Positions 1 to 63,683 of a DNA stretch of 64,000 nucleotides are shown one piece after another. Within the stretch, counting starts at the first letter, position 1. Each line of letters begins with the position of its first letter. A model generated the notes under the pieces. The model ran no database searches. It was not told the origin of the DNA and saw nothing but the letters and a program-made list of their open reading frames with translations. The stretch is from a virus: the IMG/VR virus record IMGVR_UViG_3300045988_182734, positions 1-64,000 of that record; one strand, written 5' to 3'. A program made the translations under genes and the position numbers.

Positions 1-2
1 CG

Positions 3-1706: not shown

Positions 1707-1760
1707 TCCAGAATAGTGTTGCCTTAAAAAACAGCACCTGTTGTTAGGAGAGATAAAACA

Positions 1761-5721: not shown

Positions 5722-5731
5722 AGTATCCTCC

Positions 5732-7129: not shown

Positions 7130-7587
7130 TGTTTTTCTCCTCCCACAATTCTTTCTAACATAATTATATCATATTTTACAGATGGACGGGCCAAAATCGC
7201 AACTTTGTTCATGAATACTTAACCTTTATGCACGAGATTTATTGTTGCCCTAATATATAAAACTAGAGCCCCGTCATCTTGGATGGGGCTCTTGAGTTGT
7301 AGCTGGAGGTGTATCTCATTTTGTGCCAGGGGTATTGTATGGTAGTTTTCGAAAATGAGTGCAAAAAAACAAACACCAGAAGTCAAACTCAAAAATATCT
7401 TAGTCTTGGCAAGTTTACCCTTGCGCCGCTGTGCGAACCTCATAAAATAGAAATTGTACAAGAGAAACGGCAAGTGACGTTCATCGCGATTGTAGTTGGT
7501 CGCCACGAATCGATGCCGTGTCTGCTTGCGCATAATTACCTCTTTTCGAAGCCCACAGGTCATTCTCTCACCTGTGGGTTTTGTTTA

Positions 7588-7615
7588 TTGCGGAATCGTG
7601 CGAATTGCAGACAAT
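7588..7615 (+). promoter_or_regulatory. Conserved-family promoter (TTGCGG-16-GACAAT, spacer contains CGTGCGAATTG)
   Basis: Member of the 16-copy promoter family seen across the window. Confidence 0.5.
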
Positions 7616-7685
7616 TAAAGACAGAGCGATTGTGAGATGGGGCGATACCGATGCAGTAGGAATGAGAATCTTAGCAGCTAAAAGA

Positions 7686-7990
7686 GTCAACAACCCCGCC
7701 TAAACCGGTTCGCCGGTTATAGACGGGGCTTGCGGGGCAACCTGTAAGCCCAGTTGATTAGCCTAAGCCCATTGCTCCGGCAGTGGGGAAAACTACGTTG
7801 TGTACTAATAATATAGGCACCTTATCCATGCTCCACAAGTGGTGAGCTCTGCAGGCGTTTCGTTAAACATCTCCGAGGGGAGGAGAAGTGCGAGCGTCAT
7901 GTCGAAAGGCTAAAACAGTGCATAACATTGGCGAAGTGGACCACAGGACGCAAGTCCTGACTTATAGTTTTATTACTATTTTACGAATGG
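7686..7990 (+). ncRNA. Conserved ~310-nt structured 5' leader element, copy 1 (upstream of flotillin)
   Basis: About 85% identical to 17060-17420. Nested hairpins CCCCGCCTA[AACCGGTTCGCCGGTT]ATAG(A/G)CGGGG. GNRA hairpin CAGGACGCAAGTCCTG covaries with copy 2. Confidence 0.45.
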
Positions 7991-8003: not shown

Positions 8004-9647
8004 ATGGTATATGTGATTGGAATTGTAGCAGCCCTGATTATTCTCTTTGGATTTCTCTGCTACAAGAAAGCTCCGCCCACGGAGGCTATCGTTGTAACTG
8101 GCTTTGGCCTGTCTAAGCCTAAAGTGGTTTGCGGAAAGGGTACATTTGTTCTGCCCGTTCTTCAACGGGCTGACCGACTGAATATGCGCCTTTTGAAAAT
8201 CGATGTCAAGACTCCTGAAACAGGTGTTAAGACGAAGAACGGCGTAAGTCTCTGGATTGACTCTGTTGTCACGATTCAAGTCTACAGCGAAAACTCTACT
8301 GTTCTGGATGAAGAAGTAAAAGCATCCGGTCTGAAAGACGCCAAGGCGTACATCATGTCCCGACAACAGGCAGCCATCTCGAACTTTCTGGGCATGAACG
8401 AGCAGGGCATCAATGAGAAAGTTAATGACGTTCTGCAGGGCAATTTGCGTGAGATTGTCTCTGACATGACCGTTGACCAAATTCTGACGAACCGCAAGCA
8501 GATGGCTGTGAGCGTTATCGAGAATGCTCGCCCCGACCTTGCTAAGATGGGACTTGAGGTCGTGACTTTTAATGTCCAGGACATCAGGGATGCAGTGGAT
8601 GTTCAAGGCCACAATCACGGCGTTATCGAAGCTATCGGCATCGAACAGGAAGAGCTCGTAAAGAAACAGGCTGAAATTGCCCGTGCTCAGGCTGCCCGTG
8701 ATGTAGCCTGCGCGAAGGCCGATGCTGAGATGGCTGCAAATGCCAAGGAAGTTGAAGCGCAGACTGCGATTGCAAAACGCAACAATGAATTGCAGCTCGC
8801 CAAGGCAAAGCTGAAAGCTGAAGCTGATAAAGCTGCGGCTGACGCAGATGCTGCCGGTCAGATTCAGATGAATCTCCGCGCCAAAGAAATCAAAGAAGCG
8901 GAAGCGGATGCTGAAATCGCCAAGCAGAAGAAAATGGTAGACCTTGCCGCACAGGAAGCCGAGGTCCAGCAACGCAAACTGGATGCGGAAGTCCGCAAAC
9001 AGGCAGATGCTGACCTGTACCGCCGCCAGAAAGAGGCAGAAGCCAAGAAATATGAGGCGGAACGTGCAGCTGAGGCACAGAAGTTCTCCAAGCAGCAGGA
9101 AGCAGAAGGCATTGAGCTTGTCGGTAAGGCAGAAGCTGAAGCCATTCGCCAGAAAGGCTTGGCTGAAGCGGAAGCCATGAAACAGAAAGCAGAGGCATAT
9201 AAGCAGTATAATGATGCGGCTGTGGCTGAAATGCTCATCAAGGTTCTTCCTGACATTGCCAAGAGCGTGGCTCAGCCTTTGTCCAGCATTGATAAGGTTT
9301 CTATCATTGGCGGTGATGCCTCCGGCGTATCCGGCGTTTCCGGGAATGTTCCTATCCTCATGGCTCAAACCATGCAGACGGTGAAAGAAGCGACCGGCAT
9401 TGACATGGGCGAAATTGCCCGTGCCAACAGCATCCAGGCAAAGACCGACCGCAACATCAACATTATGACACAAGGCAAACTGCCTGAGAATAGCCAAAAG
9501 GAAGGAGGTGACAAAGCAATGGAACGTGTAGAAGGCGGCTATCTAGTTCATGAGAAGACTCTCAACGGTGAGGAAATCACTCATTTTCGGCCGGATGTGA
9601 CCGAAGAGGAGAAAGCTATCATGAAAGACAAAAAGGCCAAAGATTAA
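8004..9647 (+). CDS. Flotillin / SPFH (band 7) family protein
   Basis: N-terminal TM segment, SPFH core, then a long Ala/Glu/Lys-rich coiled-coil repeat region. RBS GGAG. Confidence 0.85.
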   Translation: MVYVIGIVAALIILFGFLCYKKAPPTEAIVVTGFGLSKPKVVCGKGTFVLPVLQRADRLNMRLLKIDVKTPETGVKTKNGVSLWIDSVVTIQVYSENSTVLDEEVKASGLKDAKAYIMSRQQAAISNFLGMNEQGINEKVNDVLQGNLREIVSDMTVDQILTNRKQMAVSVIENARPDLAKMGLEVVTFNVQDIRDAVDVQGHNHGVIEAIGIEQEELVKKQAEIARAQAARDVACAKADAEMAANAKEVEAQTAIAKRNNELQLAKAKLKAEADKAAADADAAGQIQMNLRAKEIKEAEADAEIAKQKKMVDLAAQEAEVQQRKLDAEVRKQADADLYRRQKEAEAKKYEAERAAEAQKFSKQQEAEGIELVGKAEAEAIRQKGLAEAEAMKQKAEAYKQYNDAAVAEMLIKVLPDIAKSVAQPLSSIDKVSIIGGDASGVSGVSGNVPILMAQTMQTVKEATGIDMGEIARANSIQAKTDRNINIMTQGKLPENSQKEGGDKAMERVEGGYLVHEKTLNGEEITHFRPDVTEEEKAIMKDKKAKD

Positions 9648-16754: not shown

Positions 16755-16781
16755 TGTCAATCTGTGCGAATTGCGTACAAT
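16755..16781 (+). promoter_or_regulatory. Conserved-family promoter (TTGTCA-16-TACAAT)
   Basis: Spacer ATCTGTGCGAATTGCG. Confidence 0.5.
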
Positions 16782-16811
16782 GAAAAATATAAACTAAAAA
16801 TATATCTTATC

Positions 16812-16850
16812 GTTGTCCCGCATGAGTTGTTCGTGCGGGATTTTTTGTTT
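16812..16850 (+). terminator. Terminator-like hairpin ~35 nt downstream of the promoter (possible attenuator)
   Basis: TCCCGCA-tgagttgttcg-TGCGGGA then TTTTTTG. Related in inverted form to the 16707 hairpin. Confidence 0.4.
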
Positions 16851-16868
16851 GTGGAAAGGGAATGAATT

Positions 16869-17075
16869 ATGTACGGCTTATCAGAAGAAAGCTTAACGAT
16901 TGTTGGTGTTATTTTGATTGTGGTTGGTGTCGCTATGATTGGTTGGGAATTTGAATGGAATCAGGACATTACCAATGATAAACGGGTCGGAACTGTTGTC
17001 AGAGACATTGGCGTTATGGTTTTGGCAACCGGCATCATATTTGTGACACAGCGGGCAGTCAACAACCCCGCCTAA
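16869..17075 (+). CDS. Small membrane protein (2 TM, 68 aa)
   Basis: RBS GGAAAGGGAATGAATT. The 3' end runs into the conserved leader element. Confidence 0.5.
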   Translation: MYGLSEESLTIVGVILIVVGVAMIGWEFEWNQDITNDKRVGTVVRDIGVMVLATGIIFVTQRAVNNPA

Positions 17076-21604: not shown

Positions 21605-21834
21605 ACACCACAGAGCAAAAAGCAAACCCAGCCTGCAGTAAAATGCGGGTAGGACTTATTTGTTTGCGTAGCTGCATCCTTTTGTCCGCAGAAACCGTAG
21701 GTGCCAGGATGCGTAGCAGCCAACATGATTTGACTTGCCGTGCGAGTCCCATACAATCAAATCTGTACGAAAGATACTATGCACACAATAGAATTCACAC
21801 TAAGCTGCTCAGTGGCCATATGGCTATTGGGTAG

Positions 21835-21863
21835 CTTTTTCTTTTGTGCGAACTGCGTACAAT
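21835..21863 (+). promoter_or_regulatory. Conserved-family promoter (weak -35, spacer TTGTGCGAACTGCG, TACAAT)
   Basis: Family member. Confidence 0.4.
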
Positions 21864-24156: not shown

Positions 24157-24184
24157 TTGCACATCTGTGCGAATCAGATATAAT
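24157..24184 (+). promoter_or_regulatory. Conserved-family promoter (TTGCAC-16-TATAAT)
   Basis: Spacer ATCTGTGCGAATCAGA. Confidence 0.5.
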
Positions 24185-24270
24185 AACCCTAATAAGATAA
24201 AAATTGTGCCCTGACGGCATCTGAATTGGATGCTGCCGGGGCATTTTTGTTTGTTAAGGAGAATTTGGCT

Positions 24271-30814: not shown

Positions 30815-30955
30815 CGCTTGCTATATTATTCGAATTCGGTAAAATATAAAATGTAAACAGATACTAAGAACCAGTAGGATTCACAATCTGTATGTTAAGC
30901 GGACTTATCCCATAGCGGGGTAGGTCCGCTTTTTTTTGTTGAAAGGAGAAAAAAC

Positions 30956-32134: not shown

Positions 32135-32274
32135 TCGACAAGCTGTGCGAACTGACTACAATAAAAAATGTACGATAGATAACAAACATCGAAAAAGGCA
32201 TTCTGCCTTTCGTACAATTCACAGTTCTGCAGACATAAGGCAGACTCACCGTCTTGGTGGGCCTGCCTTTTTTG
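32135..32274 (+). promoter_or_regulatory. Promoter + ~100-nt conserved leader + intrinsic terminator, module A
   Basis: TACAAT, then GTACGATAGATAACA, hairpin AAAGGCA/TGCCTTT, CGTACAATTCA, and terminator AGGCAGAC..GGGCCTGCCTTTTTT. Confidence 0.5.
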
Positions 32275-37137: not shown

Positions 37138-37165
37138 TTGTGTATCTGTGCGAATTGCATATAAT
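37138..37165 (+). promoter_or_regulatory. Conserved-family promoter (TTGTGT-16-TATAAT)
   Basis: Spacer ATCTGTGCGAATTGCA. Confidence 0.5.
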
Positions 37166-37277
37166 ACAAAATATAGAACGAAAGGCATCAAAAAACATCG
37201 TTGGTCGGGCAAAATCCGACCGAAAGGCTAGGGCGGGCTCAGTTTTGAACCTGCTCTTTCTTTTTATCGGAGGCTTT

Positions 37278-37805
37278 ATGTCAAACAAAGAAGAACGCAT
37301 GAACCGCAATAAAAGCATCATCGAAGATTACAAAAATGGAAAGTCGATTTTGGAAATCGCGAGGGAATACAATCTTTCAGAAACAATGTGCTACAAGATT
37401 CTAAAAGGCACGCAGGAGCCGCCTCGTTGTTTTGAAAAAAAGAGGAAGAGACTTACCACTCGAAATGAGCAAATTGTTAAACAGTATAAAGGCGGTATGA
37501 CGGCCAGAGAATTGGGCAAGATGTACGGCATTTCCATGCAGCGTATTTATGCAATCTTGCATTCGAGCGGAGAGTACGAAAGCCAAAAATACAATCATAT
37601 TGAAACGGCTCTCAAAAAAGAGAAAAAGATGCGGAACCAAACTTTTCTTGATGCTTACAAGAAAAATCCTCAAAAATCGATTATCGAGTTGAGCAGGGAG
37701 GTAAATATCAGCCCTTCACTAGGTTACCTTATCCTTCATCAAAATGGGATTTACCAGTATAACGTAAAAGCCAGAGCTAAGGAGAATAGCGAAAATGCCG
37801 ATTAA
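37278..37805 (+). CDS. Tandem-HTH-repeat protein (3 units)
   Basis: RBS GGAGG. Repeats IEDYKNGKSILEIAREYNLSETMCYKIL. Upstream part of the ORF overlaps the promoter. Confidence 0.65.
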   Translation: MSNKEERMNRNKSIIEDYKNGKSILEIAREYNLSETMCYKILKGTQEPPRCFEKKRKRLTTRNEQIVKQYKGGMTARELGKMYGISMQRIYAILHSSGEYESQKYNHIETALKKEKKMRNQTFLDAYKKNPQKSIIELSREVNISPSLGYLILHQNGIYQYNVKARAKENSENAD

Positions 37806-38313
37806 CAAGATTACCCACGTGTGTCTAACTCATGACAAAGTCAGAGCACGAAATGAAAAGATGCTGGAGGATGCCAAGAACGGTATGTCCCAGGAACAGC
37901 TGGCTGAAAAGTATCAAATCTGTGTTTCTACTGTCCGATATAGTCTGAAGGACTTTTACGAAGAACGGGCCCGGCAGAGGAAAGCAAAAAAGGAAGTCTG
38001 GCAAACCCAGATGATTCACGAATATGAGATGGGCGCGAAATCTCCGGAGCTTCAGGAAAAATACGGCATCAGTGGAACGCTCTTTTATCGGATTCTTCAT
38101 GCGCACGGAAAGAATGGCCGACAAATCCACAGCCAAAACCGTATCGAGACTGGCAAGAAAAGAAACGCCGAGATGGTCAGGAAATACAAAAACGGCGTTT
38201 CTGTCAAAGAGCTTGCGGAAGAATACGGGCTCAAAAAGGGAAGCGTATATCGCGCCATGAAGCGGTATAGTCCAGGCCCAGGGAAAAGTAAAAGTTGTCA
38301 AAGTGAGGAATAA
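37795..38313 (+). CDS. Tandem-HTH-repeat protein (3 units)
   Basis: RBS AGGAG. Overlaps the previous stop. Repeats EDAKNGMSQEQLAEKYQICVSTVRYSL. Confidence 0.65.
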   Translation: MPINKITHVCLTHDKVRARNEKMLEDAKNGMSQEQLAEKYQICVSTVRYSLKDFYEERARQRKAKKEVWQTQMIHEYEMGAKSPELQEKYGISGTLFYRILHAHGKNGRQIHSQNRIETGKKRNAEMVRKYKNGVSVKELAEEYGLKKGSVYRAMKRYSPGPGKSKSCQSEE

Positions 38314-38317
38314 TTGC

Positions 38318-39271
38318 ATGGCTGCATCAAAGAAAGATGTTGCGAAGCAGCAGGTCAAAGAAGACCGCGAAAAGGTTCGGGAAATGTATCTTTCTGGCAA
38401 AACTGTCAAGGAAATCGCCAAGGAAACGTATTTTTCAAGCTCTTATTGCTATGCCATGGTGAGAGACCTAGCAAAAGAAAAGAATCTTGCAAAGAAAGCA
38501 AAAAGAGCACCTCTCGACGAAGCTATGATTCAAGATGCGAAAGCCGAGATGACGGTTGCTGAAATCGCAAAGAAGCATGGCGTGACCTATCAGCAGTGCT
38601 ACTATACTGTTTCTGAATACGCTCAAGCTACGATTAAGAAGAACAAGAAAAAGCAGTCTGCTGCCACGAAAGTTCGCAATGCGGCTATGTTGGAAGATGC
38701 GAAAGCCGGAATGACAGATAAGGAAATCGCCAAAAAATACTTTTTGTCTCGAAGCAGTGTCCGTACCGTCCTTGCAGGGCATCTACATACAAATTCCAAA
38801 AAGTTGGATGAAAGGCGCAAGGCGATTCTTGCGGATTATGAGGCAGGAACGTCCTCAAAAGACATCTGTGAGAAATACGGTATTTCAAAATCCACTCTAT
38901 ACAAGGACATGCGCCAAATTGGAAAAACCTGTCAGGAATACTATCACAAGGCGCTGAAAGACAAGACCAATCAAAGGAATTCCGATATTCGAAGCAAAAT
39001 CGAAAGAGGGGTCTCGGTCAGCACTATTGCCAAGGAATACGGAATCTCTAAAACGGCGATTTATGAAACCTTTCATCAGGAAAATGTCAGAGCTGGAATT
39101 TTACAGAAACGCGGCCGTCCGCGAAAAAACACGGAACGTAATGCACTGATTGCTAAACGCCACAGGGAAGGCGAGGCAATACAGGCACTTGCTACCGAAT
39201 ATAATCTCTCTGTTTCGACGGTAAACACTATTTGCAGTAGAAACAAAAATCAGAATATAGCATCATATTAA
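38318..39271 (+). CDS. Tandem-HTH-repeat protein (6 units)
   Basis: RBS GTGAGGAATAATTGC. Six ~45-aa repeats of G.(S/T)..EIAK.Y..S...(Y/V). Confidence 0.65.
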   Translation: MAASKKDVAKQQVKEDREKVREMYLSGKTVKEIAKETYFSSSYCYAMVRDLAKEKNLAKKAKRAPLDEAMIQDAKAEMTVAEIAKKHGVTYQQCYYTVSEYAQATIKKNKKKQSAATKVRNAAMLEDAKAGMTDKEIAKKYFLSRSSVRTVLAGHLHTNSKKLDERRKAILADYEAGTSSKDICEKYGISKSTLYKDMRQIGKTCQEYYHKALKDKTNQRNSDIRSKIERGVSVSTIAKEYGISKTAIYETFHQENVRAGILQKRGRPRKNTERNALIAKRHREGEAIQALATEYNLSVSTVNTICSRNKNQNIASY

Positions 39272-39316: not shown

Positions 39317-40231
39317 ATGACAGACGACGTACGAAATTTGATTCGATTTGTGGTGGATGGCGATATCCGAAATGCACAGACTCAGTGCCGAATCATGCTT
39401 GAGAAAAACGTTCCCGAAAAGGATGCCAGATTCAAGGAAAATGAGCTTCGAAAACTGAACCTTCTGAAACCGGAACTCATTCAGCTGCCTGCCAACCTGG
39501 AAAACCTTTTGATTGCGGAGGACGCTACAAATTTCCCGGAAAGCCGGTTCCTGCTCCGTGAGGAAGAAGAGGCGGTTATCAACAAGCTCCTGGCTACCAG
39601 AAAAGCAGCTCTTGCCATCAAGGAATTGGGCATTCACTATACCTGCTCTTTGCTTTTGACGGGGCTTCCTGGCGTCGGCAAGACCGAATTGGCCCGTTAC
39701 ATTGCACACAAGGCAAATTTGCCGTTTGTTTTCCTGAAATTCTCTGGCTTGGTTGATTCTGCTCTTGGTCGTACACAGCAGAATATCGGCAGAGTATTTG
39801 ACTACGCAAAACGCACGCCCTGCGTTCTCTGCGTTGACGAAATTGATGCCATCGGAATGTGCCGTGGCGGCCGCGATGATGTTGCTGAAATGAGCCGTGT
39901 CACCATTGCTTTGATGCAGGAATTGGACCGGCTCCCAAACGATGTTATTCTCATCGGCACCACTAACCGCGTCGATAATTTGGACGAAGCCCTGATTCGC
40001 CGGTTTACTTTCAAACACCGGGTCAAGCCTCTGGGTGATGACGACATGAAAGAACTGTGCAAGAAGTTCCTTGCTTCGGCAGACTACCCCTTCACGGAAT
40101 CTGAACTTGACGAGCTCTGTCATTTGCTCCGTGAGCAGCGGACTGCCAGCGCTGTGGTCAATGCTTGTACAGAACGTATCGTTGCACATATCGTATCGCG
40201 GCTGCCTGAAAGCTCGGCAGATACCCTGTAA
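39317..40231 (+). CDS. AAA+ ATPase (classical FtsH/CDC48-type AAA module)
   Basis: RBS GGAGG. Walker A GLPGVGKT, Walker B VLCVDEIDA, sensor GTTNRVDNLDEALIRRF. Confidence 0.8.
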   Translation: MTDDVRNLIRFVVDGDIRNAQTQCRIMLEKNVPEKDARFKENELRKLNLLKPELIQLPANLENLLIAEDATNFPESRFLLREEEEAVINKLLATRKAALAIKELGIHYTCSLLLTGLPGVGKTELARYIAHKANLPFVFLKFSGLVDSALGRTQQNIGRVFDYAKRTPCVLCVDEIDAIGMCRGGRDDVAEMSRVTIALMQELDRLPNDVILIGTTNRVDNLDEALIRRFTFKHRVKPLGDDDMKELCKKFLASADYPFTESELDELCHLLREQRTASAVVNACTERIVAHIVSRLPESSADTL

Positions 40232-43526: not shown

Positions 43527-43791
43527 ACAATTGTTCTCAGGAAGAGAAACGGCTCCTGAGACATCAAGGTTTTCCTTTCCCCAATCTTGGTCGCATGGCT
43601 TCATTTGAGCTGACACAGGTGAAGCGTGAAAATCATCCGTTTCATAGTAATATCCTTCCTTTCATACCTCTTTATTTCCCATTTGGCGCGGGTAACTCCG
43701 CGCCAGCCGTCCAAGCAAACAGCCTCCACGTGGTGGACGGTGGGCAACAGATGTTTCCGTGTTCCGGGCATCTGGCTAATGTTTGTATTTG

Positions 43792-45219: not shown

Positions 45220-45295
45220 GGAGGGATAGCTTAGCTGGATAAAGCACCTGCCGCAAAGCAGGGTATCGATGGTTCGAGGCCATCTCCCTTCTCCA
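45220..45295 (+). tRNA. tRNA-like gene with aberrant anticodon loop (6-nt CGCAAA or 8-nt CCGCAAAG); isotype unassigned
   Basis: Good acceptor (GGAGGGA/TCCCTTC), D-arm (GCTT AGCTGGATA AAGC), T-arm (GATGG TTCGAGG CCATC) and CCA, but the anticodon arm cannot form a 5+7+5 structure. Confidence 0.4.
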
Positions 45296-47784: not shown

Positions 47785-47812
47785 TTGCGTTAATGTGCGA
47801 AATGGATAAATT
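47785..47812 (+). promoter_or_regulatory. Conserved-family promoter (TTGCGT-16-TAAATT)
   Basis: Spacer TAATGTGCGAAATGGA. Upstream of tnpB. Confidence 0.45.
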
Positions 47813-47837
47813 AAATAATAGAAGGTGGTGATAAGCA

Positions 47838-48983
47838 ATGCCTATGCAAAAACTAAATAGAGCAATAAAATATCGTGCATATCCTACACCTGAGCAGCAG
47901 GTGTTGCTTTCTAAAACCTTCGGCTGCGTTCGCTTTGTCTGGAATCATATGCTGACGGACGCGCGGCAATTTTTGAATGAAGCAGGGACGTTTTTTATTC
48001 CAACTCCTGCTAAATACAAAAAAGAGTTTCCGTTTCTGAAAGAAGTGGATAGCCTTGCACTCGCTAATGCACAGCTTGATTTGAAAGAAGCACGTAAGAA
48101 GCATCGAGAGAACCCTAAAAGCTGTGGCGCTCCCAAACTCAAGAGTAAGCGCAAAAGTAAAATGTCTTATACAACAAACACTCATTCATACAAAACGAAT
48201 GATGGCCATGTTGTACATACAATCGCGCTTGGATATGACTCCATCAGGTTACCAAAAATTGGATGGGTAAAAATCAACAAGCATCGTGAGCCGGAAGCCA
48301 ACTGGGTGCTGAAAAGTGCTACCGTAAGCTGTACCCGCAGCGGCAAATACTTTATTTCGCTGCTGTACGAGTTTGAGAAAGACATTCAGTCCATTAAGCC
48401 TACAAAAGAGACTTCTCTTGGGTTGGATTACTCTTCTCACGACTTCTATGTTGACAGCAACGGCAATGTGGCCAACTATCCAAGATTCTACCGTCAGAGT
48501 GAAGCAAAACTTGCAAGGGCACAGCGTAGGCTATCGCGTATGCAGTTTGGCTCCCATCACTATGACAAACAGCTTTATAGAGCTCGAGTCCTTCAGGAAC
48601 ATGTTGTCAACCAGCGCAAGAACTTCTGCCATACGGTAAGTACTGCGATAGCCAAACAGTATGATGCCGTATTTGTAGAAGATATCAATTTGCGCGGTTT
48701 GGCTGGTTCTCTGAAATTAGGGAAATCCACTAACGACAATGGCTTCGGTATGTTTCGCACGATGTTGGAGTATAAGCTTGCATCGCAGGGAAAGACCTTT
48801 GCCAAAATCGATAAGTGGTATCCTTCCAGCAAAACTTGCAGCGTGTGCGGCTTTATAAAAGATGACCTCACACTTGCTGACCGCAGCTGGACATGCAGTG
48901 CTTGTGGAACCACACACAACCGTGACCACAATGCTGCCATTAACATTCGCACTGTAGGATTATTATGGCTCTATCCCGCGTAG
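47838..48983 (+). CDS. tnpB: TnpB (IS200/IS605-family OrfB, RuvC-like RNA-guided nuclease)
   Basis: YRAYPTPEQQVLLSKTFGCVRFVWN N-terminus, zinc finger CSVCG...CSACG, RuvC-III HNRDHNAAINI. Confidence 0.9.
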   Translation: MPMQKLNRAIKYRAYPTPEQQVLLSKTFGCVRFVWNHMLTDARQFLNEAGTFFIPTPAKYKKEFPFLKEVDSLALANAQLDLKEARKKHRENPKSCGAPKLKSKRKSKMSYTTNTHSYKTNDGHVVHTIALGYDSIRLPKIGWVKINKHREPEANWVLKSATVSCTRSGKYFISLLYEFEKDIQSIKPTKETSLGLDYSSHDFYVDSNGNVANYPRFYRQSEAKLARAQRRLSRMQFGSHHYDKQLYRARVLQEHVVNQRKNFCHTVSTAIAKQYDAVFVEDINLRGLAGSLKLGKSTNDNGFGMFRTMLEYKLASQGKTFAKIDKWYPSSKTCSVCGFIKDDLTLADRSWTCSACGTTHNRDHNAAINIRTVGLLWLYPA

Positions 48984-52059: not shown

Positions 52060-53136
52060 GTGGATAATATCATTGTGAACAGTGCTCTCTGGTATGCCGA
52101 GCAGAGCAGTCAGTTTCTTGTGAATTCTGGGGCCAACAAACTGCTGGACAAGGGCTACGACTATTATGTGAAGGAATTTATCCCACTTGGGCACCGCCTT
52201 ATCCAAAATGGTCAGATTGCCGCCGATGCAATGGATGGAGAGCTTGCCGCACAATTTTCGATGGCATACGTCGCAAACTATTGGCGTGCAGCAAAAACCG
52301 TATATAATTTCGCTCCAGAATTTCTCAGAACCTTGTCTGAGACTGAGGATGCACCCATTTATTCTGACATTATGATGCGGCTGCCATACAGAGATTTTGT
52401 CATGAATCTTCCTGCTGGTTTCCATCATGATGCGATGTTCGTACACATCGAGTTCGATGCTTCCCATGGCCCAAACGATGTGGATACGCTCTTCCTGATT
52501 GTTCCTTTTAAGGCGAACCCGAATGTCGATAACATCGAACTTTGCCAGTGCATGCAGTGGTGTCTCAACGGCAAGAAGCTGATTGAGTCCTATCGGCGCA
52601 ACAATGATGCTCGCGAGCAGGCATTTCAGAACGGAACTGATTCCGCCACTGTCAATGACGCCACGATTTCAAATGTACCCGGTGCCGTTCTCAGTGAAGA
52701 AGAGCTGGAAAAGCAGCGGGAATTCAACGCCGGCGTTGAGCCTTATCTTCGTGTTGCGGTTTCTGCAGCTTATTACCTTGCATCCAAGAATGCTGAAATC
52801 AAAGAGGTAAAAATCCCGAAAGAGAAGCGGCCCATCCTTGTTTCCAAATCTGGCGCGACTCCTAAAAAAGTCAACGTCAAGACCTATAATGTAGGCTTTG
52901 TCATCGGAAAGAGCTTTGAAAAGCAGCTGGCTTCCGGTGGGGAATATCAGAAATCCGCAGCAACTGGCACGGGCCGTACGGTTAGACCTCATGTACGCCG
53001 CGCCCATTGGCATCATTATTGGGTCGGAGAAGGCCGGACACGCCTGGAAGTCCGCTGGATAGAGCCGACTTTTGTACTGCCAGAAGGGAAACGTGAGGTT
53101 CCGGTTGCTACCGTTAGACGGGTTTTAGGCGCTTAA
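52060..53136 (+). CDS. Hypothetical protein, paralog family member (C-terminal RRAHWHHYWVGEGRTRLEVRWIEPT)
   Basis: GTG start after RBS GAGGTGG. Paralogous to 14269..15156 and 54098..54439. Confidence 0.65.
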   Translation: MDNIIVNSALWYAEQSSQFLVNSGANKLLDKGYDYYVKEFIPLGHRLIQNGQIAADAMDGELAAQFSMAYVANYWRAAKTVYNFAPEFLRTLSETEDAPIYSDIMMRLPYRDFVMNLPAGFHHDAMFVHIEFDASHGPNDVDTLFLIVPFKANPNVDNIELCQCMQWCLNGKKLIESYRRNNDAREQAFQNGTDSATVNDATISNVPGAVLSEEELEKQREFNAGVEPYLRVAVSAAYYLASKNAEIKEVKIPKEKRPILVSKSGATPKKVNVKTYNVGFVIGKSFEKQLASGGEYQKSAATGTGRTVRPHVRRAHWHHYWVGEGRTRLEVRWIEPTFVLPEGKREVPVATVRRVLGA

Positions 53137-53147
53137 AGGAGTTTCAC

Positions 53148-53684
53148 ATGAAAGCAAACTACAAAATTGTCGCAAACAAGCAGAAAATTCTTGAAAAAGA
53201 AATTGAAAATTTCGAGCCAACATCAACAATGTCAGTGCTTCTGATGCGCTACAGCATCATACAAGGGCTACTCCAGGTTAAACTGAACGAAAAAGACGCG
53301 AATGGTAGCCCTAACATCAGCCCTTCCGATATGGCATACGATATGACTACATTTTTTAGCGATGCCGTCAATACTGCGGCCGATGATTTCACAGATGATG
53401 ATGACGACAGCACAATAAAATTTGATGGCACCGTTGATGAATTTCGGCAAGAACTTGCCAATCGCGTCTTAATAACACTCAGTTTGGCGTTTGAACATGA
53501 ATTCATAAATTTTACAGAGCAAACCGGGATTTCCCGCGCACAGTATGAAATTCTTGCGGCTGAATATATTGCTCATGCGGAAGACGACGGCAGTAAAGTA
53601 TGCGAAATGTTCAAAGGCGACAGCTCTGAAAAGCACAAGTCTAAGGGTTGGAACAGTGCTTCTCCCAAAAACAAACGAAGCTGA
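53148..53684 (+). CDS. Hypothetical acidic protein (178 aa)
   Basis: RBS AAAGGAG. Confidence 0.6.
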   Translation: MKANYKIVANKQKILEKEIENFEPTSTMSVLLMRYSIIQGLLQVKLNEKDANGSPNISPSDMAYDMTTFFSDAVNTAADDFTDDDDDSTIKFDGTVDEFRQELANRVLITLSLAFEHEFINFTEQTGISRAQYEILAAEYIAHAEDDGSKVCEMFKGDSSEKHKSKGWNSASPKNKRS

Positions 53685-53693
53685 AAAAGCCAC

Positions 53694-53822
53694 TTGCATA
53701 AATGTGCGAACCGCCTAAAATAATAATTGCATAACAGATACCATCACTTACCTCCTAACTGAACATTAACAATCTGTCATGCTTGTAAGCAGACTCTCTT
53801 TTGAGGGCCTGCTTATTTTTTA
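53694..53822 (+). promoter_or_regulatory. Promoter + short leader + intrinsic terminator, module E
   Basis: TTGCAT-16-TAAAAT, ~70-nt leader, terminator AAGCAGAC..GAGGGCCTGCTTATTTTTT (same family as 55017). Confidence 0.45.
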
Positions 53823-53852
53823 TGTATTGATTAGAAAAATATTTTAGAAAGG

Positions 53853-54104
53853 ATGAAGATTATGACCACAAATACCAAAAACAGCTTTACCAGGTTCGCA
53901 GCTGCAGCAAAAGATTGCTTCTATGTGAATTCTTTTCGCGCAGACTTAGTTCAGTGCGACAGAGCCTTGAAAATGGACGGCGAAATGCGCGTCGAAGCGG
54001 AATGCTGGATGAACATTTTGGATGCCCTGGACGATAACGATATCAAGATGTATGTCGATAACGAATACCGCCCCGGACTTTTGAACCCGTTCCATAAATG
54101 GTGA
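53853..54104 (+). CDS. Hypothetical protein (83 aa)
   Basis: RBS AAAGGATGAAG. Confidence 0.5.
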   Translation: MKIMTTNTKNSFTRFAAAAKDCFYVNSFRADLVQCDRALKMDGEMRVEAECWMNILDALDDNDIKMYVDNEYRPGLLNPFHKW

Positions 54105-54439
54105 CGTCCCAAAAAACAAATGAATTACAACCCATTACAAATGCGGTAGGGCGGCATTGCTGTTCTGCCGCTATTTTTGTTTTTGATGTCGGTTACGTTA
54201 TCGGGAAAAGCTTCGAGCAGCAAATGCGTCCTGCTAATGCAACCTGTGCCGAAAGCTTTTCCCATTGTGGCAGCAGTCACAGCGTTCGCTCTCATGTGCG
54301 CCGCGCTCACTGGCATCATTACTGGGTCGGGGAAGGCCGCACAAGACTCGAAGTCCGTTGGATTGAACCGACCTTGGTTCTTGCCAACAGCAAAAACGAA
54401 GCCGATGTGGCTATCGTACGAAATGTGAAAGGAGCATGA
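54098..54439 (+). pseudogene. C-terminal fragment of the 52060-type paralog (last ~100 codons only)
   Basis: VGYVIGKSFEQQ...VRRAHWHHYWVGEGRTRLEVRWIEPT aligns to the C-terminus of 52060..53136 only. Confidence 0.45.
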
Positions 54440-54924
54440 CAATGCTTAATCCAAATATCAATAATGCTCTCGAAACCAATTCAAGCAAAGCGGTGCTTCT
54501 CAGCATCAAAAAGCAATGGCTTGAAAAGATTCTGAGCGGAGAAAAGACCATTGAGGTCCGAAAAACCATGCCGTGGGAAATCAGCTATCCTTTTGTGGTG
54601 TTTTGCTATGAAACAAAAGCTGATGGTGGTGCTGGTAAAGTGACTGCCGCGTTTGTTTGCCGTGACATCAATACACTCGATTGTCTGCGCGAACTCCCGG
54701 CATATGCTATTGGCACAGAAGTCACCGAAAAGACCGCTCAATTCGTGAAGGACAGCTGCCTTAATGCAAACGAGCTGATTGCATATGGCAATAAGTCTGG
54801 CACTCTCTACGGCTGGAACGTTTCTGATGTCCAATCCTTGGATATGTCACTGCGAAAACTCGGCATTAAGCGGGCACCACAGTCCTGGATGTATCTGCAA
54901 GTTCCCAACGACAAGACGTTCTGA
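54436..54924 (+). CDS. ASCH (PUA-like) domain protein
   Basis: KAVLLSIKKQWLEKILSGEKTIEVRK matches the ASCH core. RBS AAAGGAG. Confidence 0.6.
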   Translation: MTMLNPNINNALETNSSKAVLLSIKKQWLEKILSGEKTIEVRKTMPWEISYPFVVFCYETKADGGAGKVTAAFVCRDINTLDCLRELPAYAIGTEVTEKTAQFVKDSCLNANELIAYGNKSGTLYGWNVSDVQSLDMSLRKLGIKRAPQSWMYLQVPNDKTF

Positions 54925-54934
54925 ACGATGCCTG

Positions 54935-55052
54935 TTGGGGCTGCATGTGCAAACTCAGCAAAATATCAACCGCACGATAGGAGCAAGTTCGAACGAACAA
55001 TTCATCGTGCAAACAAAGCAGACTCTCGATTCTTGAGGGCCTGCTATTTTTT
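54935..55052 (+). promoter_or_regulatory. Promoter + conserved leader + intrinsic terminator, module D
   Basis: Leader CGCACGATAGGAGCAAGTTCGAACGAACAATTCA, terminator AAGCAGACTCTCGATTCTTGAGGGCCTGCTATTTTTT. Confidence 0.45.
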
Positions 55053-55071
55053 ATTTCAGGAGGAAACATCA

Positions 55072-55611
55072 ATGATTCTTTATCATATCATGGCGGACAC
55101 CGGATACTTGCCGGACGATGTTGTTCCGCAGATACCAACGAATCGGATGAAAGGGGAGGACCAGGAAATTCCAAGGATTTGTCTTGGGCATACCCTCGAC
55201 GACTGCCTGACTAGCATCGGTATTGCGCATTTCGTCTCGAAGTTCCTGCTCGCTGAACTGCGTCAGAACAAAAAATACTCCAAGGACATGCCGTTACCGT
55301 TCATTGTCCGAATGTACAACATCAAGGACGAAGACCCGAATCTCTTGACCGAGGAAGAAACACAGAAATATGTGGCGGATTCTGTCGTGACCAGTGAATG
55401 CTGGCTCACAAGATACGAGAAGCCCGTCAAAATCCAGAAACTTTGGCTTGTGGGCGGCGAAGTGGTGCTTTGGCCCTATATCGTTGACGGCGTTGTATAC
55501 AATTACCCAATCGTCCGTAACTCAATTTGGGCAGATAGCAAAACCTTGCCGGACCCGGAATTTCAGAATCAAATCATGGATATCACTCAGAAATGGCTTA
55601 ACGAAGCCTGA
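55072..55611 (+). CDS. Hypothetical protein (179 aa)
   Basis: RBS AGGAGG. Confidence 0.65.
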   Translation: MILYHIMADTGYLPDDVVPQIPTNRMKGEDQEIPRICLGHTLDDCLTSIGIAHFVSKFLLAELRQNKKYSKDMPLPFIVRMYNIKDEDPNLLTEEETQKYVADSVVTSECWLTRYEKPVKIQKLWLVGGEVVLWPYIVDGVVYNYPIVRNSIWADSKTLPDPEFQNQIMDITQKWLNEA

Positions 55612-55633
55612 AAAAGAAGCACATCAAAAGCTC

Positions 55634-55768
55634 TTGCACATCCTTGCGAATTCCATAGTATTAAAGTTGTACGACAGATAACATCTACTTGGCACGCCGC
55701 GTGCTCGTACAATTCATAATTCTGTTCTCATTCAAGGCAGACCCATCTTCATGATGGGCCTGCCTTTT
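55634..55768 (+). promoter_or_regulatory. Promoter + conserved leader + intrinsic terminator, module B
   Basis: TTGCAC-16-TAGTAT, then GTACGACAGATAACA, hairpin GCACG/CGTGC, CGTACAATTCA, terminator AGGCAGACCCATC-ttca-GATGGGCCTGCCTTTTTTT. Confidence 0.5.
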
Positions 55769-55863
55769 TTTGTTTACAGAAAAAGGAGGAATTCAAAACA
55801 AACCACAAATCTCAAATCACAATCTTCCGCTACAAGGAAAAGACACAAAAAAGGAGTCACAAA

Positions 55864-56691
55864 ATGAAAGTCGAAAAGAATAATAACAGCATTTTTCGGA
55901 ACAAGCATGTCCTGGTTGTCGTCGCGGTGATGTGTATTTTTACCATCATCGCCTGCATGGGTTTTATGCTTTCTGTTCCTGCACACGCAGAGGAAAACAT
56001 AGCTCCCAAAACCGAACCTATCGCTTTTTCCACTCCCATTGAAACGGTGAATGAGCTCGATAAAGCGTTCCCGATAACGGAAACTTCCGAAGAAGCACAG
56101 GAGGAGATTACAACTGCTGAGGTCGAATCTTCCGATGCTGCAGAACCGGAACCACGGATTGAGACCGCAGAAGCAGCCATCGAAGAAGCCAAACCGAAAC
56201 CCGAAACAATCCCAGATAATCTCAACGACAATGAGCTTGAAATCTACACAGCTCTGCGGTCCGCTGGTCTTTCCAAGGCCGGTACTGCCGCAGTGATGGG
56301 CTGCATGTCGATGGAAAGCGGTCTTAAAGCCTCGGCCGAAAACCCTTCGGATGGCGGCTATGGACTCCTGCAATGGACTTATAGCCGAAAGACAGACCTT
56401 TTCAACTGGTGTTATGGCAATGGCTATGACCCCAACACCGTTACGGGACAGGTGATGTTCTTCGTGTATGAGCTCAATAGCACATACAGCAAGGCCGCCA
56501 AATACTCGTATCCAGTGTACGAAACTCTTACTACAAGCGACAGCCTGGAAGATTGCCTTTCGATGTTCTTCTCCCATATGGAAGCAGGAACCAACGTGAT
56601 AATCTCTTCCCGCAAAATCTATGCAGGAGGGCTGACCACGTTAGACCTATACCGCAAACGCTTAACTGCCGCTTACAAATACTTCATTTGA
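55864..56691 (+). CDS. Membrane-anchored phage-tail-type lysozyme (Phage_lysozyme2-like) domain protein
   Basis: RBS AAAGGAG. N-terminal TM. GCMSMESGLKASAENPSDGGYGLLQWTYSRKTDLFNW matches the tail lysozyme family core. Confidence 0.65.
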   Translation: MKVEKNNNSIFRNKHVLVVVAVMCIFTIIACMGFMLSVPAHAEENIAPKTEPIAFSTPIETVNELDKAFPITETSEEAQEEITTAEVESSDAAEPEPRIETAEAAIEEAKPKPETIPDNLNDNELEIYTALRSAGLSKAGTAAVMGCMSMESGLKASAENPSDGGYGLLQWTYSRKTDLFNWCYGNGYDPNTVTGQVMFFVYELNSTYSKAAKYSYPVYETLTTSDSLEDCLSMFFSHMEAGTNVIISSRKIYAGGLTTLDLYRKRLTAAYKYFI

Positions 56692-60261: not shown

Positions 60262-60299
60262 TTTTTCATTACCGCTGCCCATTTGGGTGGCGGTTTTTG

Positions 60300-60430
60300 T
60301 TGCGGATTTATGCGAACGGGTTAAGATATAAATTGTACGATAGATAACAGATATCGAAAAGGCATCCTGCCCTTCGCACACTTAACAATGCGCTTTAGGC
60401 GAACTTCCCATTTGGGCGGTTCGCCTTTTT
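60300..60430 (+). promoter_or_regulatory. Promoter + conserved leader + intrinsic terminator, module C
   Basis: TTGCGG-16-TAAGAT, then GTACGATAGATAACA, hairpin AAAGGCA/TGCCCTT, terminator AGGCGAAC-ttcccatttgggcg-GTTCGCCTTTTTG. Confidence 0.5.
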
Positions 60431-63600: not shown

Positions 63601-63683
63601 CCTTTTTGCAATTCTCAAACTGTTTTTTGGCAGACCTTCCAACCGAGGGCCTGCCTTTTTTATTGTTGCCAGGAGGAAAATCT

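What the first reader, a model, noticed from the sequence alone, without database searches (positions are those of the whole stretch)
32135..32274. Five promoter/short-leader/intrinsic-terminator modules with conserved 5' end and a covarying internal hairpin: candidate antitermination leaders or a phage sRNA family
At 32135-32274, 53694-53822, 54935-55052, 55634-55768 and 60300-60430, a conserved-family promoter is followed within about 70-110 nt by a strong intrinsic terminator, before the next gene's RBS. Three modules start with GTACGA(T/C)AGATAACA at the predicted +1 and contain CGTACAATTCA. The first hairpin is AAAGGCA/TGCCTTT in two modules and GCACG/CGTGC in the third, which looks like structural covariation. 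Four terminators share GGGCCTGC(C/T)T-T(n). A promoter that reads straight into a terminator implies either a regulated antitermination leader, as with lambda qut or HK022 put, or discrete ~100-nt sRNAs. I do not recognise this family.
Basis: seen in the sequence. Interest (0 to 1): 0.85.

Follow-up and report, generated by a model that had tools for sequence, protein, structure and literature searches.

The report
Repeated phage promoter–leader RNA–terminator cassettes
A large uncultivated phage carries many copies of a previously undescribed cassette – a promoter, a conserved folded ~55-nt RNA and a specialised terminator placed just before a gene – which most likely acts as an on/off gate for transcription of its accessory genes.

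Summary
The window holds three canonical modules (RNA starts 32170, 55669, 60335), four divergent ones (21765, 30853, 53729, 54972) and one promoter-less linker+terminator (63608). A covariance model finds 211 copies in 92 related sequences, up to 8 in 14 kb. No Rfam family, GenBank phage or held paper matches.

Each module has five parts:
- a fixed-geometry promoter (TTGC / TGCGAA / TAnAAT);
- an invariant GUACGAUAGAUA(A/C)CA at the predicted +1;
- a three-way junction whose variable hairpin covaries at 7 of 7 pairs;
- a conserved linker, AAUUCACAAUU(CUGC/UCGC);
- a strong terminator with a conserved GC(A/G)GAC arm, present in 121/145 module terminators and 0/69 ordinary operon-end terminators.

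The linker pentamer is complementary to that terminator arm (93.6% paired, C-G/U-A exchange). It is predicted to pair with it in nascent RNA, which makes it an antiterminator helix. In 145/148 contexts the downstream gene has no other recognisable promoter.

Best reading: a multi-copy cis-acting attenuator leader needing an unknown factor for read-through (about 0.5). Rivals are a put-like RNA acting on polymerase, stand-alone sRNAs, and leaky insulator/shuffling cassettes. It is a new variant of a known kind. Function is untested.

The parts
32135..32162 (+). M1 promoter: -35 TCGACA (32135-32140), spacer box TGCGAA (32146-32151), -10 TACAAT (32157-32162)
32170..32215 (+). M1 5' domain (three-way junction): invariant GTACGATAGATAACA; P3 AAAGGCA/TGCCTTT (32194-32200 / 32204-32210); P1 closes with TCGTAC (32210-32215)
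   Evidence: (96 bits)
32216..32230 (+). M1 linker AATTCACAGTTCTGC; TCTGC (32226-32230) is complementary to GCAGA of the terminator 5' arm (P4, putative antiterminator)
32239..32273 (+). M1 intrinsic terminator GGCAGACTCACC / GGTGGGCCTGCC plus T6; RBS at 32290, ATG at 32307
55634..55661 (+). M4 promoter TTGCAC / TGCGAA / TAGTAT
55669..55725 (+). M4 three-way junction (P3 GCACG/CGTGC, P1 GTACGA/TCGTAC) and linker AATTCATAATTCTGT
   Evidence: (83 bits)
55736..55771 (+). M4 terminator GGCAGACCCATC / GATGGGCCTGCC plus T7; next gene starts at 55864 (lysozyme-like)
60271..60299 (+). Ordinary operon-end terminator of the upstream gene, lying before the M5 promoter (no GCRGAC motif)
60300..60327 (+). 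M5 promoter TTGCGG / TGCGAA / TAAGAT
60335..60393 (+). M5 5' domain (P3 AAGGCA/TGCCCTT; P1 3' strand CGCAC with one A·C mismatch) and linker ACTTAACAATGCGC
   Evidence: (77 bits)
60398..60430 (+). M5 terminator GGCGAACTTCCC / GGGCGGTTCGCC plus T5; ATG at 60463
53694..53721 (+). M2 promoter TTGCAT / TGCGAA / TAAAAT
53729..53821 (+). M2 divergent member: AGATACCA core; long-range helix ACAGAT (53734-53739) / ATCTGT (53772-53777) that sequesters the P4 strand; ATTAACAAT linker; terminator 53787-53821; ATG at 53862
   Evidence: (32 bits)
54935..54964 (+). M3 promoter-like TTGGGG / TGCAAA / CAAAAT (degenerate)
54972..55052 (+). M3 divergent member: outer helix GCACGAT/ATCGTGC (compensatory relative to GTACGA/TCGTAC), ACAATTCA inside the helix, terminator 55018-55052; ATG at 55072
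   Evidence: (44 bits)
30818..30935 (+). Additional divergent member: promoter TTGCTA/TTCGAA/TAAAAT, RNA from 30853 (ACAGATACTA core, ACAGAT/ATCTGT helix, ATTCACAATCTGT), terminator AAGCGGAC.../...GTCCGCTT plus T8; ATG at 30956
   Evidence: (34.5 bits)
21730..21863 (+). Additional divergent member: promoter, RNA from 21765 (GTACGAAAGATACTA ... GAATTCACAC), terminator 21802-21841, then a SECOND family promoter (TGCGAA 21847, TACAAT 21858) before ATG 21887
63608..63661 (+). Promoter-less linker plus terminator unit (GCAATTCTCAAACTGT; GGCAGACC.../...GGGCCTGCC plus T6) directly after a stop codon; ATG at 63684
   Evidence: (34 bits)

Best explanation
The modules are a multi-copy family of cis-acting 5' leader attenuators.

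Proposed sequence of events:
1. A host-type (sigma-70/sigmaA-like) promoter with a phage-specific TGCGAA spacer box starts transcription at or 1 nt before the invariant GUACGAUAGAUA(A/C)CA.
2. The first ~55 nt fold into a three-way junction. P1 is GUACG/CGUAC. P2 is AGAU/AUCU with an A(A/C)CA loop. P3 is a free-sequence hairpin.
3. A conserved single-stranded linker, AAUUCACAAUU, follows. Its last five bases (UCUGC or UUCGC) can pair with the conserved GC(A/G)GA at the base of the terminator's 5' arm.
4. This short antiterminator hairpin (P4) forms first in the nascent RNA. By default it is displaced by the much stronger terminator, so the default product is a ~100-nt terminated RNA and the downstream gene stays off.
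5. Read-through requires a factor that holds P4. The factor could be a phage or host protein, or a small ligand, recognising the invariant junction/P2 loop and the linker.

Because the effect is local, every small operon of accessory genes carries its own copy, and one factor could switch the whole set on together.

Shown: the architecture, its conservation, covariation of P3 and the terminator, P4 complementarity, the distinct terminator class, and the absence of another recognisable promoter.
Inferred: the transcription start site, termination as the default state, the existence and identity of the factor, and the switch itself.
For: Family and architecture: the model finds 211 hits at E<1e-3 in 92 sources, up to 8 copies in 14 kb. 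Promoter geometry is fixed relative to G1 in 85 distinct contexts.

Structure: 92.5% of cells are paired against 79.5% in shuffles and 41-53% when partners are slid. P3 shows double changes at 7/7 pairs and the terminator at 10/11. The isolated 5' domain is closed by P1 in 67/79 minimum-free-energy folds.

Conserved unpaired residues: positions 1-12, 14 and 15, the linker TT/A/A, and GCRGAC are near-invariant. That is typical of a recognition surface.

Antiterminator P4:
- 93.6% paired against 23-64% when slid. One pair exchanges C-G (37), U-A (29) and U-G (10).
- In RNA truncated before the terminator's 3' arm, P4 has median pair probability 0.87 and exceeds 0.5 in 77% of 83 members.
- The base of the 5' arm is paired upstream in 90% of module terminators against 34% of operon-end terminators, p = 1.5e-9.

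The terminator is specialised: GC[AG]GAC is in 121/145 module terminators and 0/69 operon-end terminators, at similar stability (-20.3 vs -18.6 kcal/mol).

Dependence of the downstream genes: 148/148 contexts have an SD plus start codon on the same strand, at a median of 29 nt after the T-run. Only 3/148 have another family promoter in between.

Local rather than processive action: 69/148 modules follow a separate operon-end terminator, and modules recur every 1-2 kb.
Against: - No transcript data exist. The start site, termination efficiency and read-through are all inferred.
- P4 is only 5-7 bp. Its support rests mainly on one covarying pair, and shuffles already give 89.6% pairing.
- The alignment used was fitted to the model, and the sequences are related, so the counts lean towards the structure.
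- P1 and the 5' strand of P2 are almost invariant, so those helices cannot be tested by covariation.
- No candidate RNA-binding antiterminator was found among about 60 proteins scanned.
- The promoter family also drives other short leader+terminator units that lack the three-way junction (16765, 24168, 37149). This hints at a more general read-through mechanism.
- Three contexts, including 21765 in the window, have a second promoter after the terminator, as a stand-alone RNA gene would.
Confidence: 0.5

Rival explanations
1. A put-like, protein-independent RNA antiterminator. The folded 5' RNA binds the transcribing RNA polymerase that made it and makes it resistant to the following terminator, as HK022 putL, B. 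subtilis EAR and Tn916 canT do. Polymerases arriving from upstream without a freshly made element terminate.
For: - The position mimics putL: a ~55-70 nt multi-helix RNA beginning at the transcript's 5' end, right after an early-type promoter, followed by a terminator, in a phage.
- Invariant unpaired nucleotides suggest recognition by a conserved partner such as RNA polymerase.
- The leader has -10-like hexamers. TACGAT lies at +2..+7. TACAAT and CACAAT lie in the linker, with A2 and T6 conserved. A comparable hexamer in putL is proposed to cause a sigma-dependent pause that aids folding.
- No antiterminator protein was detected.
Against: - put, EAR and canT are processive over 10-30 kb. Here modules recur every 1-2 kb, and 47% follow a functional-looking operon-end terminator. 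That would be pointless if polymerase stayed terminator-resistant.
- This model does not explain the conserved terminator arm or the P4 complementarity.
- There is no sequence or structure match to any Rfam model.
- Transcripts reading in from upstream would also contain the element.
Confidence: 0.15
2. Constitutive composite regulatory/shuffling cassettes, analogous to T4-type PeSLs. The terminator is a partially leaky insulator that also ends upstream transcripts. The promoter re-initiates. The 5' junction and hairpins merely stabilise the mRNA ends. Sequence conservation is maintained by recombination between copies that shuffles ORFan cassettes.
For: - Repeated promoter+stem-loop cassettes flanking ORFans in hyperplastic regions are documented in T4-like phages.
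- Downstream genes here are mostly ORFans. Of 31 distinct proteins, only 5 have a Pfam hit.
- In 53% of contexts the module terminator is the first terminator after the upstream gene.
- The same P3 types occur with different terminator types, implying recombination between modules.
- Related contigs differ by gene insertions next to modules.
Against: - In PeSLs the stem-loop lies upstream of or overlapping the promoter, and there is no structured leader.
- Recombination alone does not explain free covariation of P3 alongside invariant junction bases, nor the terminator-arm/linker complementarity.
- The terminators look fully efficient: -20 kcal/mol with T5-T8 runs.
Confidence: 0.18
3. Stand-alone multi-copy ('sibling') small RNAs of about 100 nt. 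They would act in trans by base-pairing with host or phage mRNAs, or by titrating or decoying a host protein such as a defence or RNA-binding protein. The genes downstream would be transcribed by other means.
For: - Each unit has its own promoter and a strong terminator. The layout is sRNA-like: a structured 5' part, a conserved single-stranded A/U-rich stretch, then a terminator hairpin with a U-tail.
- Three contexts, including 21765-21863 in the window, have a separate promoter after the terminator.
- 5'UTR-derived sRNAs made by premature termination are reported in other large phages.
Against: - 145/148 downstream genes have no other recognisable promoter and start a median of 29 nt after the T-run.
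- No complementary target for the invariant 15-mer or the linker was found in the window beyond chance.
- Up to 8 copies in 14 kb, each in front of an operon, is not the pattern of known sibling sRNAs.
- This reading does not explain P4.
Confidence: 0.12
4. Lambda-Q-like, DNA-directed antitermination. A phage protein binds the TGCGAA box between the -35 and -10 elements. It loads onto polymerase held at a sigma-dependent pause caused by the -10-like TACGAT at +2..+7, and carries it through the terminator. The RNA fold would be incidental.
For: - A conserved box sits between -35 and -10, at -24..-19.
- A -10-like hexamer lies in the initial transcribed region, with a terminator about 100 nt downstream. 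This is the qut layout as summarised.
- Other family promoters followed by terminators also start with TAnnnT, 6 of 16.
- Three tandem multi-HTH, Mor-like DNA-binding proteins are encoded at 37278-39271.
Against: - The TGCGAA box is equally present at 45 distinct promoters that run straight into an RBS with no terminator.
- TAnnnT near +3 is not clearly enriched: 6/16 with a terminator against 5/29 without.
- The only Q-family signal is below threshold: PF06530, 16.8 bits against a cut-off of 26.
- Q action is processive, which raises the same problem as for put.
- This reading does not explain P3 covariation or P4.
Confidence: 0.05

Closest known systems
Factor-dependent transcription attenuators with a terminator/antiterminator switch (e.g. 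BglG/LicT-RAT, ANTAR, PyrR leaders; transcriptional riboswitches)
   Same: A 5' leader with a conserved structured sensor. A short antiterminator helix shares a strand with a strong intrinsic terminator placed just before the RBS. Many leaders in one genome could respond to one factor. The effect is local.
   Different: - No sequence or structure match to any curated family.
- No cognate binding protein or ligand was identified.
- The element starts at the transcript's 5' end and is fused at fixed spacing to a phage-specific promoter.
- The antiterminator strand does not overlap P1 of the junction, as it would in a classic riboswitch.
- It is phage-borne, in up to 8 copies per 14 kb.
HK022 put RNA (and the cis-acting RNA antiterminators EAR, Tn916 canT, pLS20 conAn2)
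   Same: A mobile-element-encoded, ~55-70 nt multi-helix RNA made immediately after an early promoter and followed by terminators. It contains a -10-like hexamer. No dedicated protein is evident.
   Different: - put is a two-stem V-shape with a triplex, whereas this is a three-way junction.
- put, EAR and canT act processively over 10-30 kb and occur once or twice per element. Here there are many copies, interleaved with apparently working terminators.
- The conserved terminator arm and P4 have no counterpart in put.
PeSLs (promoter-early stem-loop cassettes) of T4-type phages
   Same: Highly repeated, ~100-bp composite promoter+terminator cassettes in a large phage. They flank small ORFan genes, end in the SD of the next gene, and probably mediate modular shuffling.
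   Different: - In PeSLs the stem-loop is upstream of or overlapping the promoter, so transcripts from the promoter do not meet it. Here the terminator is downstream of the promoter.
- A covarying structured RNA sits in between.
Lambda pR'-qut-tR' (Q antitermination; 6S RNA)
   Same: A promoter, a short terminated RNA, then genes. There is a conserved element between -35 and -10, and a -10-like hexamer in the initial transcribed region.
   Different: - Lambda has one copy per genome and acts processively.
- The mechanism is DNA/protein-based and needs no RNA fold.
- No Q homologue reaches threshold here.
- The box is also present at promoters without terminators.
5'UTR-derived sRNAs from premature termination in giant phages (201phi2-1, phiKZ)
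   Same: A termination site immediately downstream of a start site, giving RNAs under 250 nt upstream of phage genes.
   Different: Those are single-locus observations from transcriptomics, without a shared multi-copy sequence family. Here the family is defined by sequence and structure, and no transcript data exist.

Membership tests
Any Rfam 15 family | Score at or above the family's gathering threshold | tested here: not met
   A whole-window gathering search found only HEARO, tRNAs and an HDV-like ribozyme. An E<=10 search of 53600-55900, which covers M2-M4, gave only chance-level hits of 16-19 bits against thresholds of 43-80.
Transcription attenuator / riboswitch-like leader | Intrinsic terminator between the promoter and the RBS of the regulated gene | tested here: met
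   Present in all canonical members. Median terminator energy is -20.3 kcal/mol, and the start codon lies a median of 29 nt after the T-run.
Transcription attenuator / riboswitch-like leader | Alternative (antiterminator) helix that shares a strand with the terminator | tested here: met
   P4 is 93.6% paired, with C-G/U-A exchange. It is predicted in nascent RNA in 77% of members. It is specific to module terminators: 90% against 34%. The support is computational only.
Transcription attenuator / riboswitch-like leader | Conserved structured sensor domain supported by covariation | tested here: met
   Three-way junction. P3 shows double changes at 7/7 pairs, and the junction and loop bases are invariant. 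P1 and P2 are too conserved to test.
Transcription attenuator / riboswitch-like leader | Identified effector (protein, tRNA, metabolite) and condition-dependent read-through | not testable with these tools
   No RNA-binding antiterminator domain was found in the proteins scanned. No transcriptomic data are available.
HK022 put-type cis-acting RNA antiterminator | RNA element transcribed just downstream of an early promoter and upstream of terminators | tested here: met
   Fixed spacing to the promoter, with the terminator 60-70 nt after the fold. putL position as described.
HK022 put-type cis-acting RNA antiterminator | Two-stem put fold and sequence similarity to putL/putR | tested here: inconclusive
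   The fold here is a three-way junction, whereas put is a two-stem V with a triplex.
HK022 put-type cis-acting RNA antiterminator | Processive read-through of distant terminators; acts on the RNA polymerase beta' zinc-binding domain without protein factors | not testable with these tools
   There is indirect evidence against processivity. Modules recur every 1-2 kb, and 69/148 sit behind an operon-end terminator.
Lambda Q / qut | Q-family antiterminator protein encoded by the element | tested here: not met
   The only signal is PF06530 at 16.8 bits (cut-off 26, E = 0.007), in the multi-HTH protein at 37278-37805. Only part of the ~138-kb genome was available.
Lambda Q / qut | Q-binding element specific to the terminator-controlled promoter, plus a sigma-dependent pause element at about +1..+10 | tested here: inconclusive
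   The TGCGAA box is present but not specific: 45 distinct direct-to-RBS promoters have it too. TAnnnT near +3 occurs in 6/16 promoters with a terminator against 5/29 without.
PeSL (T4-type promoter-early stem-loop cassette) | Repeated sigma-70-type promoter plus stem-loop cassette flanking ORFans and ending in the SD/start of the next gene | tested here: met
   definition.
PeSL (T4-type promoter-early stem-loop cassette) | Stem-loop upstream of or overlapping the promoter, so it terminates only upstream transcription | tested here: not met
   Here the specialised terminator is 65-100 nt downstream of the start site. PeSL layout as described.
Trans-acting sRNA gene | Independent transcription unit whose downstream gene has its own promoter | tested here: not met
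   Only 3/148 contexts have a recognisable promoter between the terminator and the next start codon. Promoters of an unrecognised type cannot be excluded.

The most novel reading that the evidence does not exclude
The three-way junction is a genuine sensor of a new class. One possibility is a phage riboswitch-like aptamer that reads an infection-state metabolite or signal. Another is a put-like RNA that acts directly but only locally on RNA polymerase. Either way, one RNA family would gate, operon by operon, the whole accessory/anti-defence gene set of a widespread clade of large uncultivated phages.
Probability: 0.25. Interest if true: 0.85.

Novelty: new variant of a known kind. Interest (0 to 1): 0.68.

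Why it matters
This appears to be an undescribed structured RNA family. It has more than 200 copies in the sequences fetched here, strong covariation, and no match in Rfam or in the held literature. It sits in a lineage of large phages with no cultured or GenBank relatives.

If it is a conditional terminator, it reveals how such phages time or gate dozens of ORFan and accessory genes with a single signal. That layout, many local attenuators rather than one processive antiterminator, differs from the lambda, HK022 and T4 paradigms.

It also gives three practical things:
- a compact, modular promoter/sensor/terminator part for engineering;
- a marker for recognising this phage clade and its hyperplastic regions;
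- a concrete RNA bait for finding the unknown factor.

Tried and rejected
- **Genome-contig scan.** None had the promoter or the linker.
- **GenBank phages.** Megablast of 25 kb and tblastn of the 908-aa helicase found no relatives. The lineage and host remain unknown.
- **RNAalifold on the plain MAFFT alignment.** It recovered only the terminator, because MAFFT mis-registers the variable hairpin. A model-based realignment was needed, which biases counts towards the model.
- **'Ordinary gene-end terminator fused to the next promoter'.** Rejected.
- **Leader-peptide attenuation.** Rejected by reading the sequences: the leaders have no SD or start codon.
- **Sigma-dependent pause element as the discriminator between promoters with and without terminators.** Not significant: 6/16 against 5/29.
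- **Trans targets complementary to the invariant 15-mer or the linker in the window.** Nothing beyond chance.
- **Candidate antiterminator proteins.** Pfam and PHROG scans of about 60 window proteins found no N, Q, NusG-like, ANTAR, CAT/PRD or PyrR domain. They found only tandem multi-HTH Mor-like proteins.
- **Resemblances considered from memory and not supported.** These were the Cas12a repeat (RNA anti-CRISPR idea), rrn/nut boxA (UUUAACAAU against UUCACAAU/UUAACAAU) and the CRP half-site. They remain untested leads.
- **A 5' ACAGAU:AUCUGU 'anti-antiterminator' helix.** It is predicted in M2 and in the 30853 member. It is not conserved in the canonical family, so I did not generalise it.
Full report
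**1. What is in the window**

All are on the + strand. Each lies between a stop codon and the next RBS.

They share a promoter with fixed geometry: TTGCnn, 5 nt, (tg)TGCGAA, 5 nt, TAnAAT. TGCGAA-N5-TAnnWT occurs 10 times in the window, all on the + strand, against 0.34 expected by chance.

M1, M4 and M5 begin 7-8 nt after the -10 element with GTACGA(T/C)AGATAACA. Each ends in a strong hairpin plus T-run. All five RNAs fold far better than shuffles, with z from -3.3 to -5.3.

- CGTACAATTCA is present in M1 and M4 only.
- M2 and M3 are divergent relatives.

A covariance model built from related sequences scores the modules as follows:

| Module | Bits |
|---|---|
| M1 | 96 |
| M4 | 83 |
| M5 | 77 |
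| M3 | 44 |
| M2 | 32 |

Three further units turned up:
- 30853-30935, found by the model at 34.5 bits;
- 63608-63661, a promoter-less linker+terminator unit, found by the model at 34 bits;
- 21765-21841, a divergent copy found by the promoter scan and a 3-mismatch pattern search.

**2. It is a large, undescribed family**

Most of them show the whole architecture.

Model R1 finds 211 matches at E<1e-3 in 92 sources totalling 861 kb. Some stretches hold 6-8 copies within 11-14 kb, one in front of each small operon.

Searches for a known identity found nothing:
- No Rfam family reaches threshold, and none comes close.
- GenBank phages contain no relative.
- No paper in the held library contains the motif strings.

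The window comes from a contig of about 138 kb. Its genes are mostly ORFans and accessory functions: methylase, helicase, NADAR, RlaP, radical SAM, AcrVA2-like, TnpB and lysozyme.

**3. Anatomy**

In 85 distinct contexts chosen from the RNA part alone, the promoter is at a fixed distance from G1:

| Element | Position relative to G1 |
|---|---|
| TTGC | -35..-32 |
| TGCGAA | -24..-19 |
| TAnAAT | -13..-8 |
| T (84 of 85) | -1 |

RNA positions 1-12, 14 and 15 are invariant. Minimum-free-energy folds of most members give a three-way junction:
- P1 is GUACG/CGUAC.
- P2 is AGAU/AUCU, or GAUA/UAUC, with an A(A/C)CA loop.
- P3 is a hairpin of free sequence.

On the model-fitted alignment of 83 distinct sequences, 92.5% of cells are paired. 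Shuffles give 79.5% and slid partners give 41-53%. P3 has double changes at 7/7 pairs and the terminator at 10/11. P1 and P2 are too conserved to test.

M3 adds a compensatory P1 variant, GCACGA/UCGUGC. Taken alone, the 5' domain is closed by P1 in 67/79 minimum-free-energy folds, with a mean z of -1.9.

After P1 comes a conserved single-stranded linker, AAUUCACAAUU. It reads as two tandem -10-like hexamers, TACAAT and CACAAT, with A2 and T6 conserved. A pentamer UCUGC/UUCGC follows, then 7-12 variable nucleotides, then the terminator. The base of the terminator is itself conserved: GC(A/G)GAC...G(Y)C(Y)GC.

**4. The terminator is specialised and has a built-in competitor**

GC[AG]GAC is present in 121/145 module terminators. 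It is present in 0/69 of the ordinary operon-end terminators that lie just upstream of modules in the same contigs. The two classes have similar stability (-20.3 against -18.6 kcal/mol).

The linker pentamer is complementary to GC(A/G)GA. This pairing, P4, is 93.6% paired against 23-64% for slid partners. Its central pair exchanges C-G (37), U-A (29) and U-G (10).

The margin over shuffles is small (89.6%), because G·U pairs tolerate most combinations. This helix therefore rests on modest covariation plus the folding evidence below.

- In RNA truncated before the terminator's 3' arm, P4 has a median pair probability of 0.87, and it exceeds 0.5 in 77% of members.
- The base of the 5' arm is paired with upstream sequence in 90% of module terminators against 34% of operon-end terminators, Mann-Whitney p = 1.5e-9. 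The samples are related.

This is the layout of a terminator/antiterminator switch.

**5. Relation to genes**

All 148 distinct contexts have an SD and start codon on the same strand, at a median of 29 nt after the T-run. Only 3/148 have another family promoter between the terminator and the start codon. 69/148 have their own operon-end terminator upstream of the module promoter. In the window this is seen at 60271-60294, before M5.

It follows that the module terminator is not simply the previous gene's terminator. It also follows that the downstream genes can be transcribed only by reading through it, unless there is a promoter type I cannot recognise.

The downstream genes are overwhelmingly ORFans.

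**6. Mechanism**

The best-supported model is a local, factor-dependent attenuator. By default the strong terminator displaces P4, releasing an RNA of about 100 nt. A factor that recognises the invariant junction/P2 loop and the linker would hold P4 and allow read-through. I put this at about 0.5.

Local action explains two features: every operon has its own copy, and operon-end terminators are retained.

The rivals, in brief:
- **put-like RNA acting on polymerase (0.15).** It fits the position, the fold size and the -10-like hexamers. But put, EAR and canT are processive over 10-30 kb, which fits poorly with modules every 1-2 kb.
- **Constitutive PeSL-like insulator/shuffling cassettes (0.18).** This fits the genomic pattern. 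But in PeSLs the stem-loop precedes the promoter, and recombination does not explain P3 covariation or P4.
- **Stand-alone sRNAs (0.12).** This fits the unit's shape, the three contexts with a second promoter (including 21765 in the window), and reports of 5'UTR-derived phage sRNAs. It does not fit the promoter-less downstream genes.
- **Q-like DNA-level loading (0.05).** It is weakened because the TGCGAA box is equally present at 45 distinct promoters without terminators. A start-proximal TAnnnT is not clearly enriched either (6/16 against 5/29). The only Q-family hit is below threshold.

**7. Caveats**

- There are no transcript data. The start site, termination efficiency and regulation are all inferred.
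- The alignment used for pair counts was fitted to the model, and many sequences are related.
- Other family promoters in the window (16765, 24168, 37149, 7432) are followed by unrelated short leaders with terminators. A more general read-through mechanism may therefore coexist.
- The host is unknown. The genome scan was swamped by chance matches.

**8. Verdict**

This is a real, widespread and apparently undescribed cis-regulatory RNA cassette. Its kind, a leader with a conditional terminator, is known. Three things are new: the family itself, its fusion to a dedicated promoter at the transcript's 5' end, and its deployment as dozens of local gates across phage accessory regions.

Noticed in passing
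window 7686-7946 (+): A full-length HEARO RNA (RF02033, 91 bits; the IscB-associated omega-RNA family). The next ORF (8004-9647) is an SPFH/flotillin-like protein, not an IscB/HNH nuclease. A family promoter and another TGCGAA box lie just upstream (7432, about 7638).
   Followed up: partly
window 43706-43786 (+): An HDV-like ribozyme (RF02682, 49 bits) lies immediately 5' of tRNA-Thr (43791). It heads a scattered set of 12 phage tRNA genes (43.8-50.5 kb), including an odd tRNA with an unassignable anticodon at 45220-45295. This layout may point to ribozyme-assisted tRNA maturation or recoding.
   Followed up: no
window 37278-39271 (+): Three consecutive proteins are built of tandem HTH (HTH_23/HTH_28/Mor-like) repeats, followed by an AAA ATPase (39317-40231). 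They are candidates for the factor that reads the TGTGCGAA promoter box. They sit behind a family promoter with its own different leader+terminator (37149).
   Followed up: partly
window 16765-16870, 24168-24265, 37149-37278, 7432-7640 (+): Other promoters of the same family are followed by unrelated short leaders that also end in a hairpin plus T-run before the RBS. 'Promoter reads into a terminator' is therefore a general habit of this genome, not only of the three-way-junction family.
   Followed up: partly
window -26..-19 and -1..+7 of each canonical module (e.g. 32144-32151 and 32169-32176): The promoter spacer box TGTGCGAA and the start-site sequence TGTACGAT agree at 6 of 8 positions. 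They lie about 24 bp apart in direct orientation, and TCGTACA (the P1 3' strand) is the exact inverted repeat of TGTACGA. This could be a DNA-level operator arrangement superimposed on the RNA helix, or it could be coincidence.
   Followed up: no
window 47796-48983 (+) and 52060-53136 (+): A TnpB/OrfB_IS605 gene is driven directly by a family promoter with no leader terminator. An AcrVA2-like protein is encoded nearby. The region looks like an anti-defence/accessory island.
   Followed up: no
L244 4391-6130 vs L241; L246 8185-8382: Near-identical contigs differ by whole-gene insertions. One is a 579-aa ORF in an intergenic gap that I did not check for modules. The other is a 65-aa ORF inserted directly after the M4 module. 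Both are consistent with cassette shuffling.
   Followed up: partly
window 1-7200: The left end differs in character: two lipoprotein-like genes on the + strand and two long genes on the - strand, with no family promoters. It may be a different module of the element or flanking DNA.
   Followed up: no
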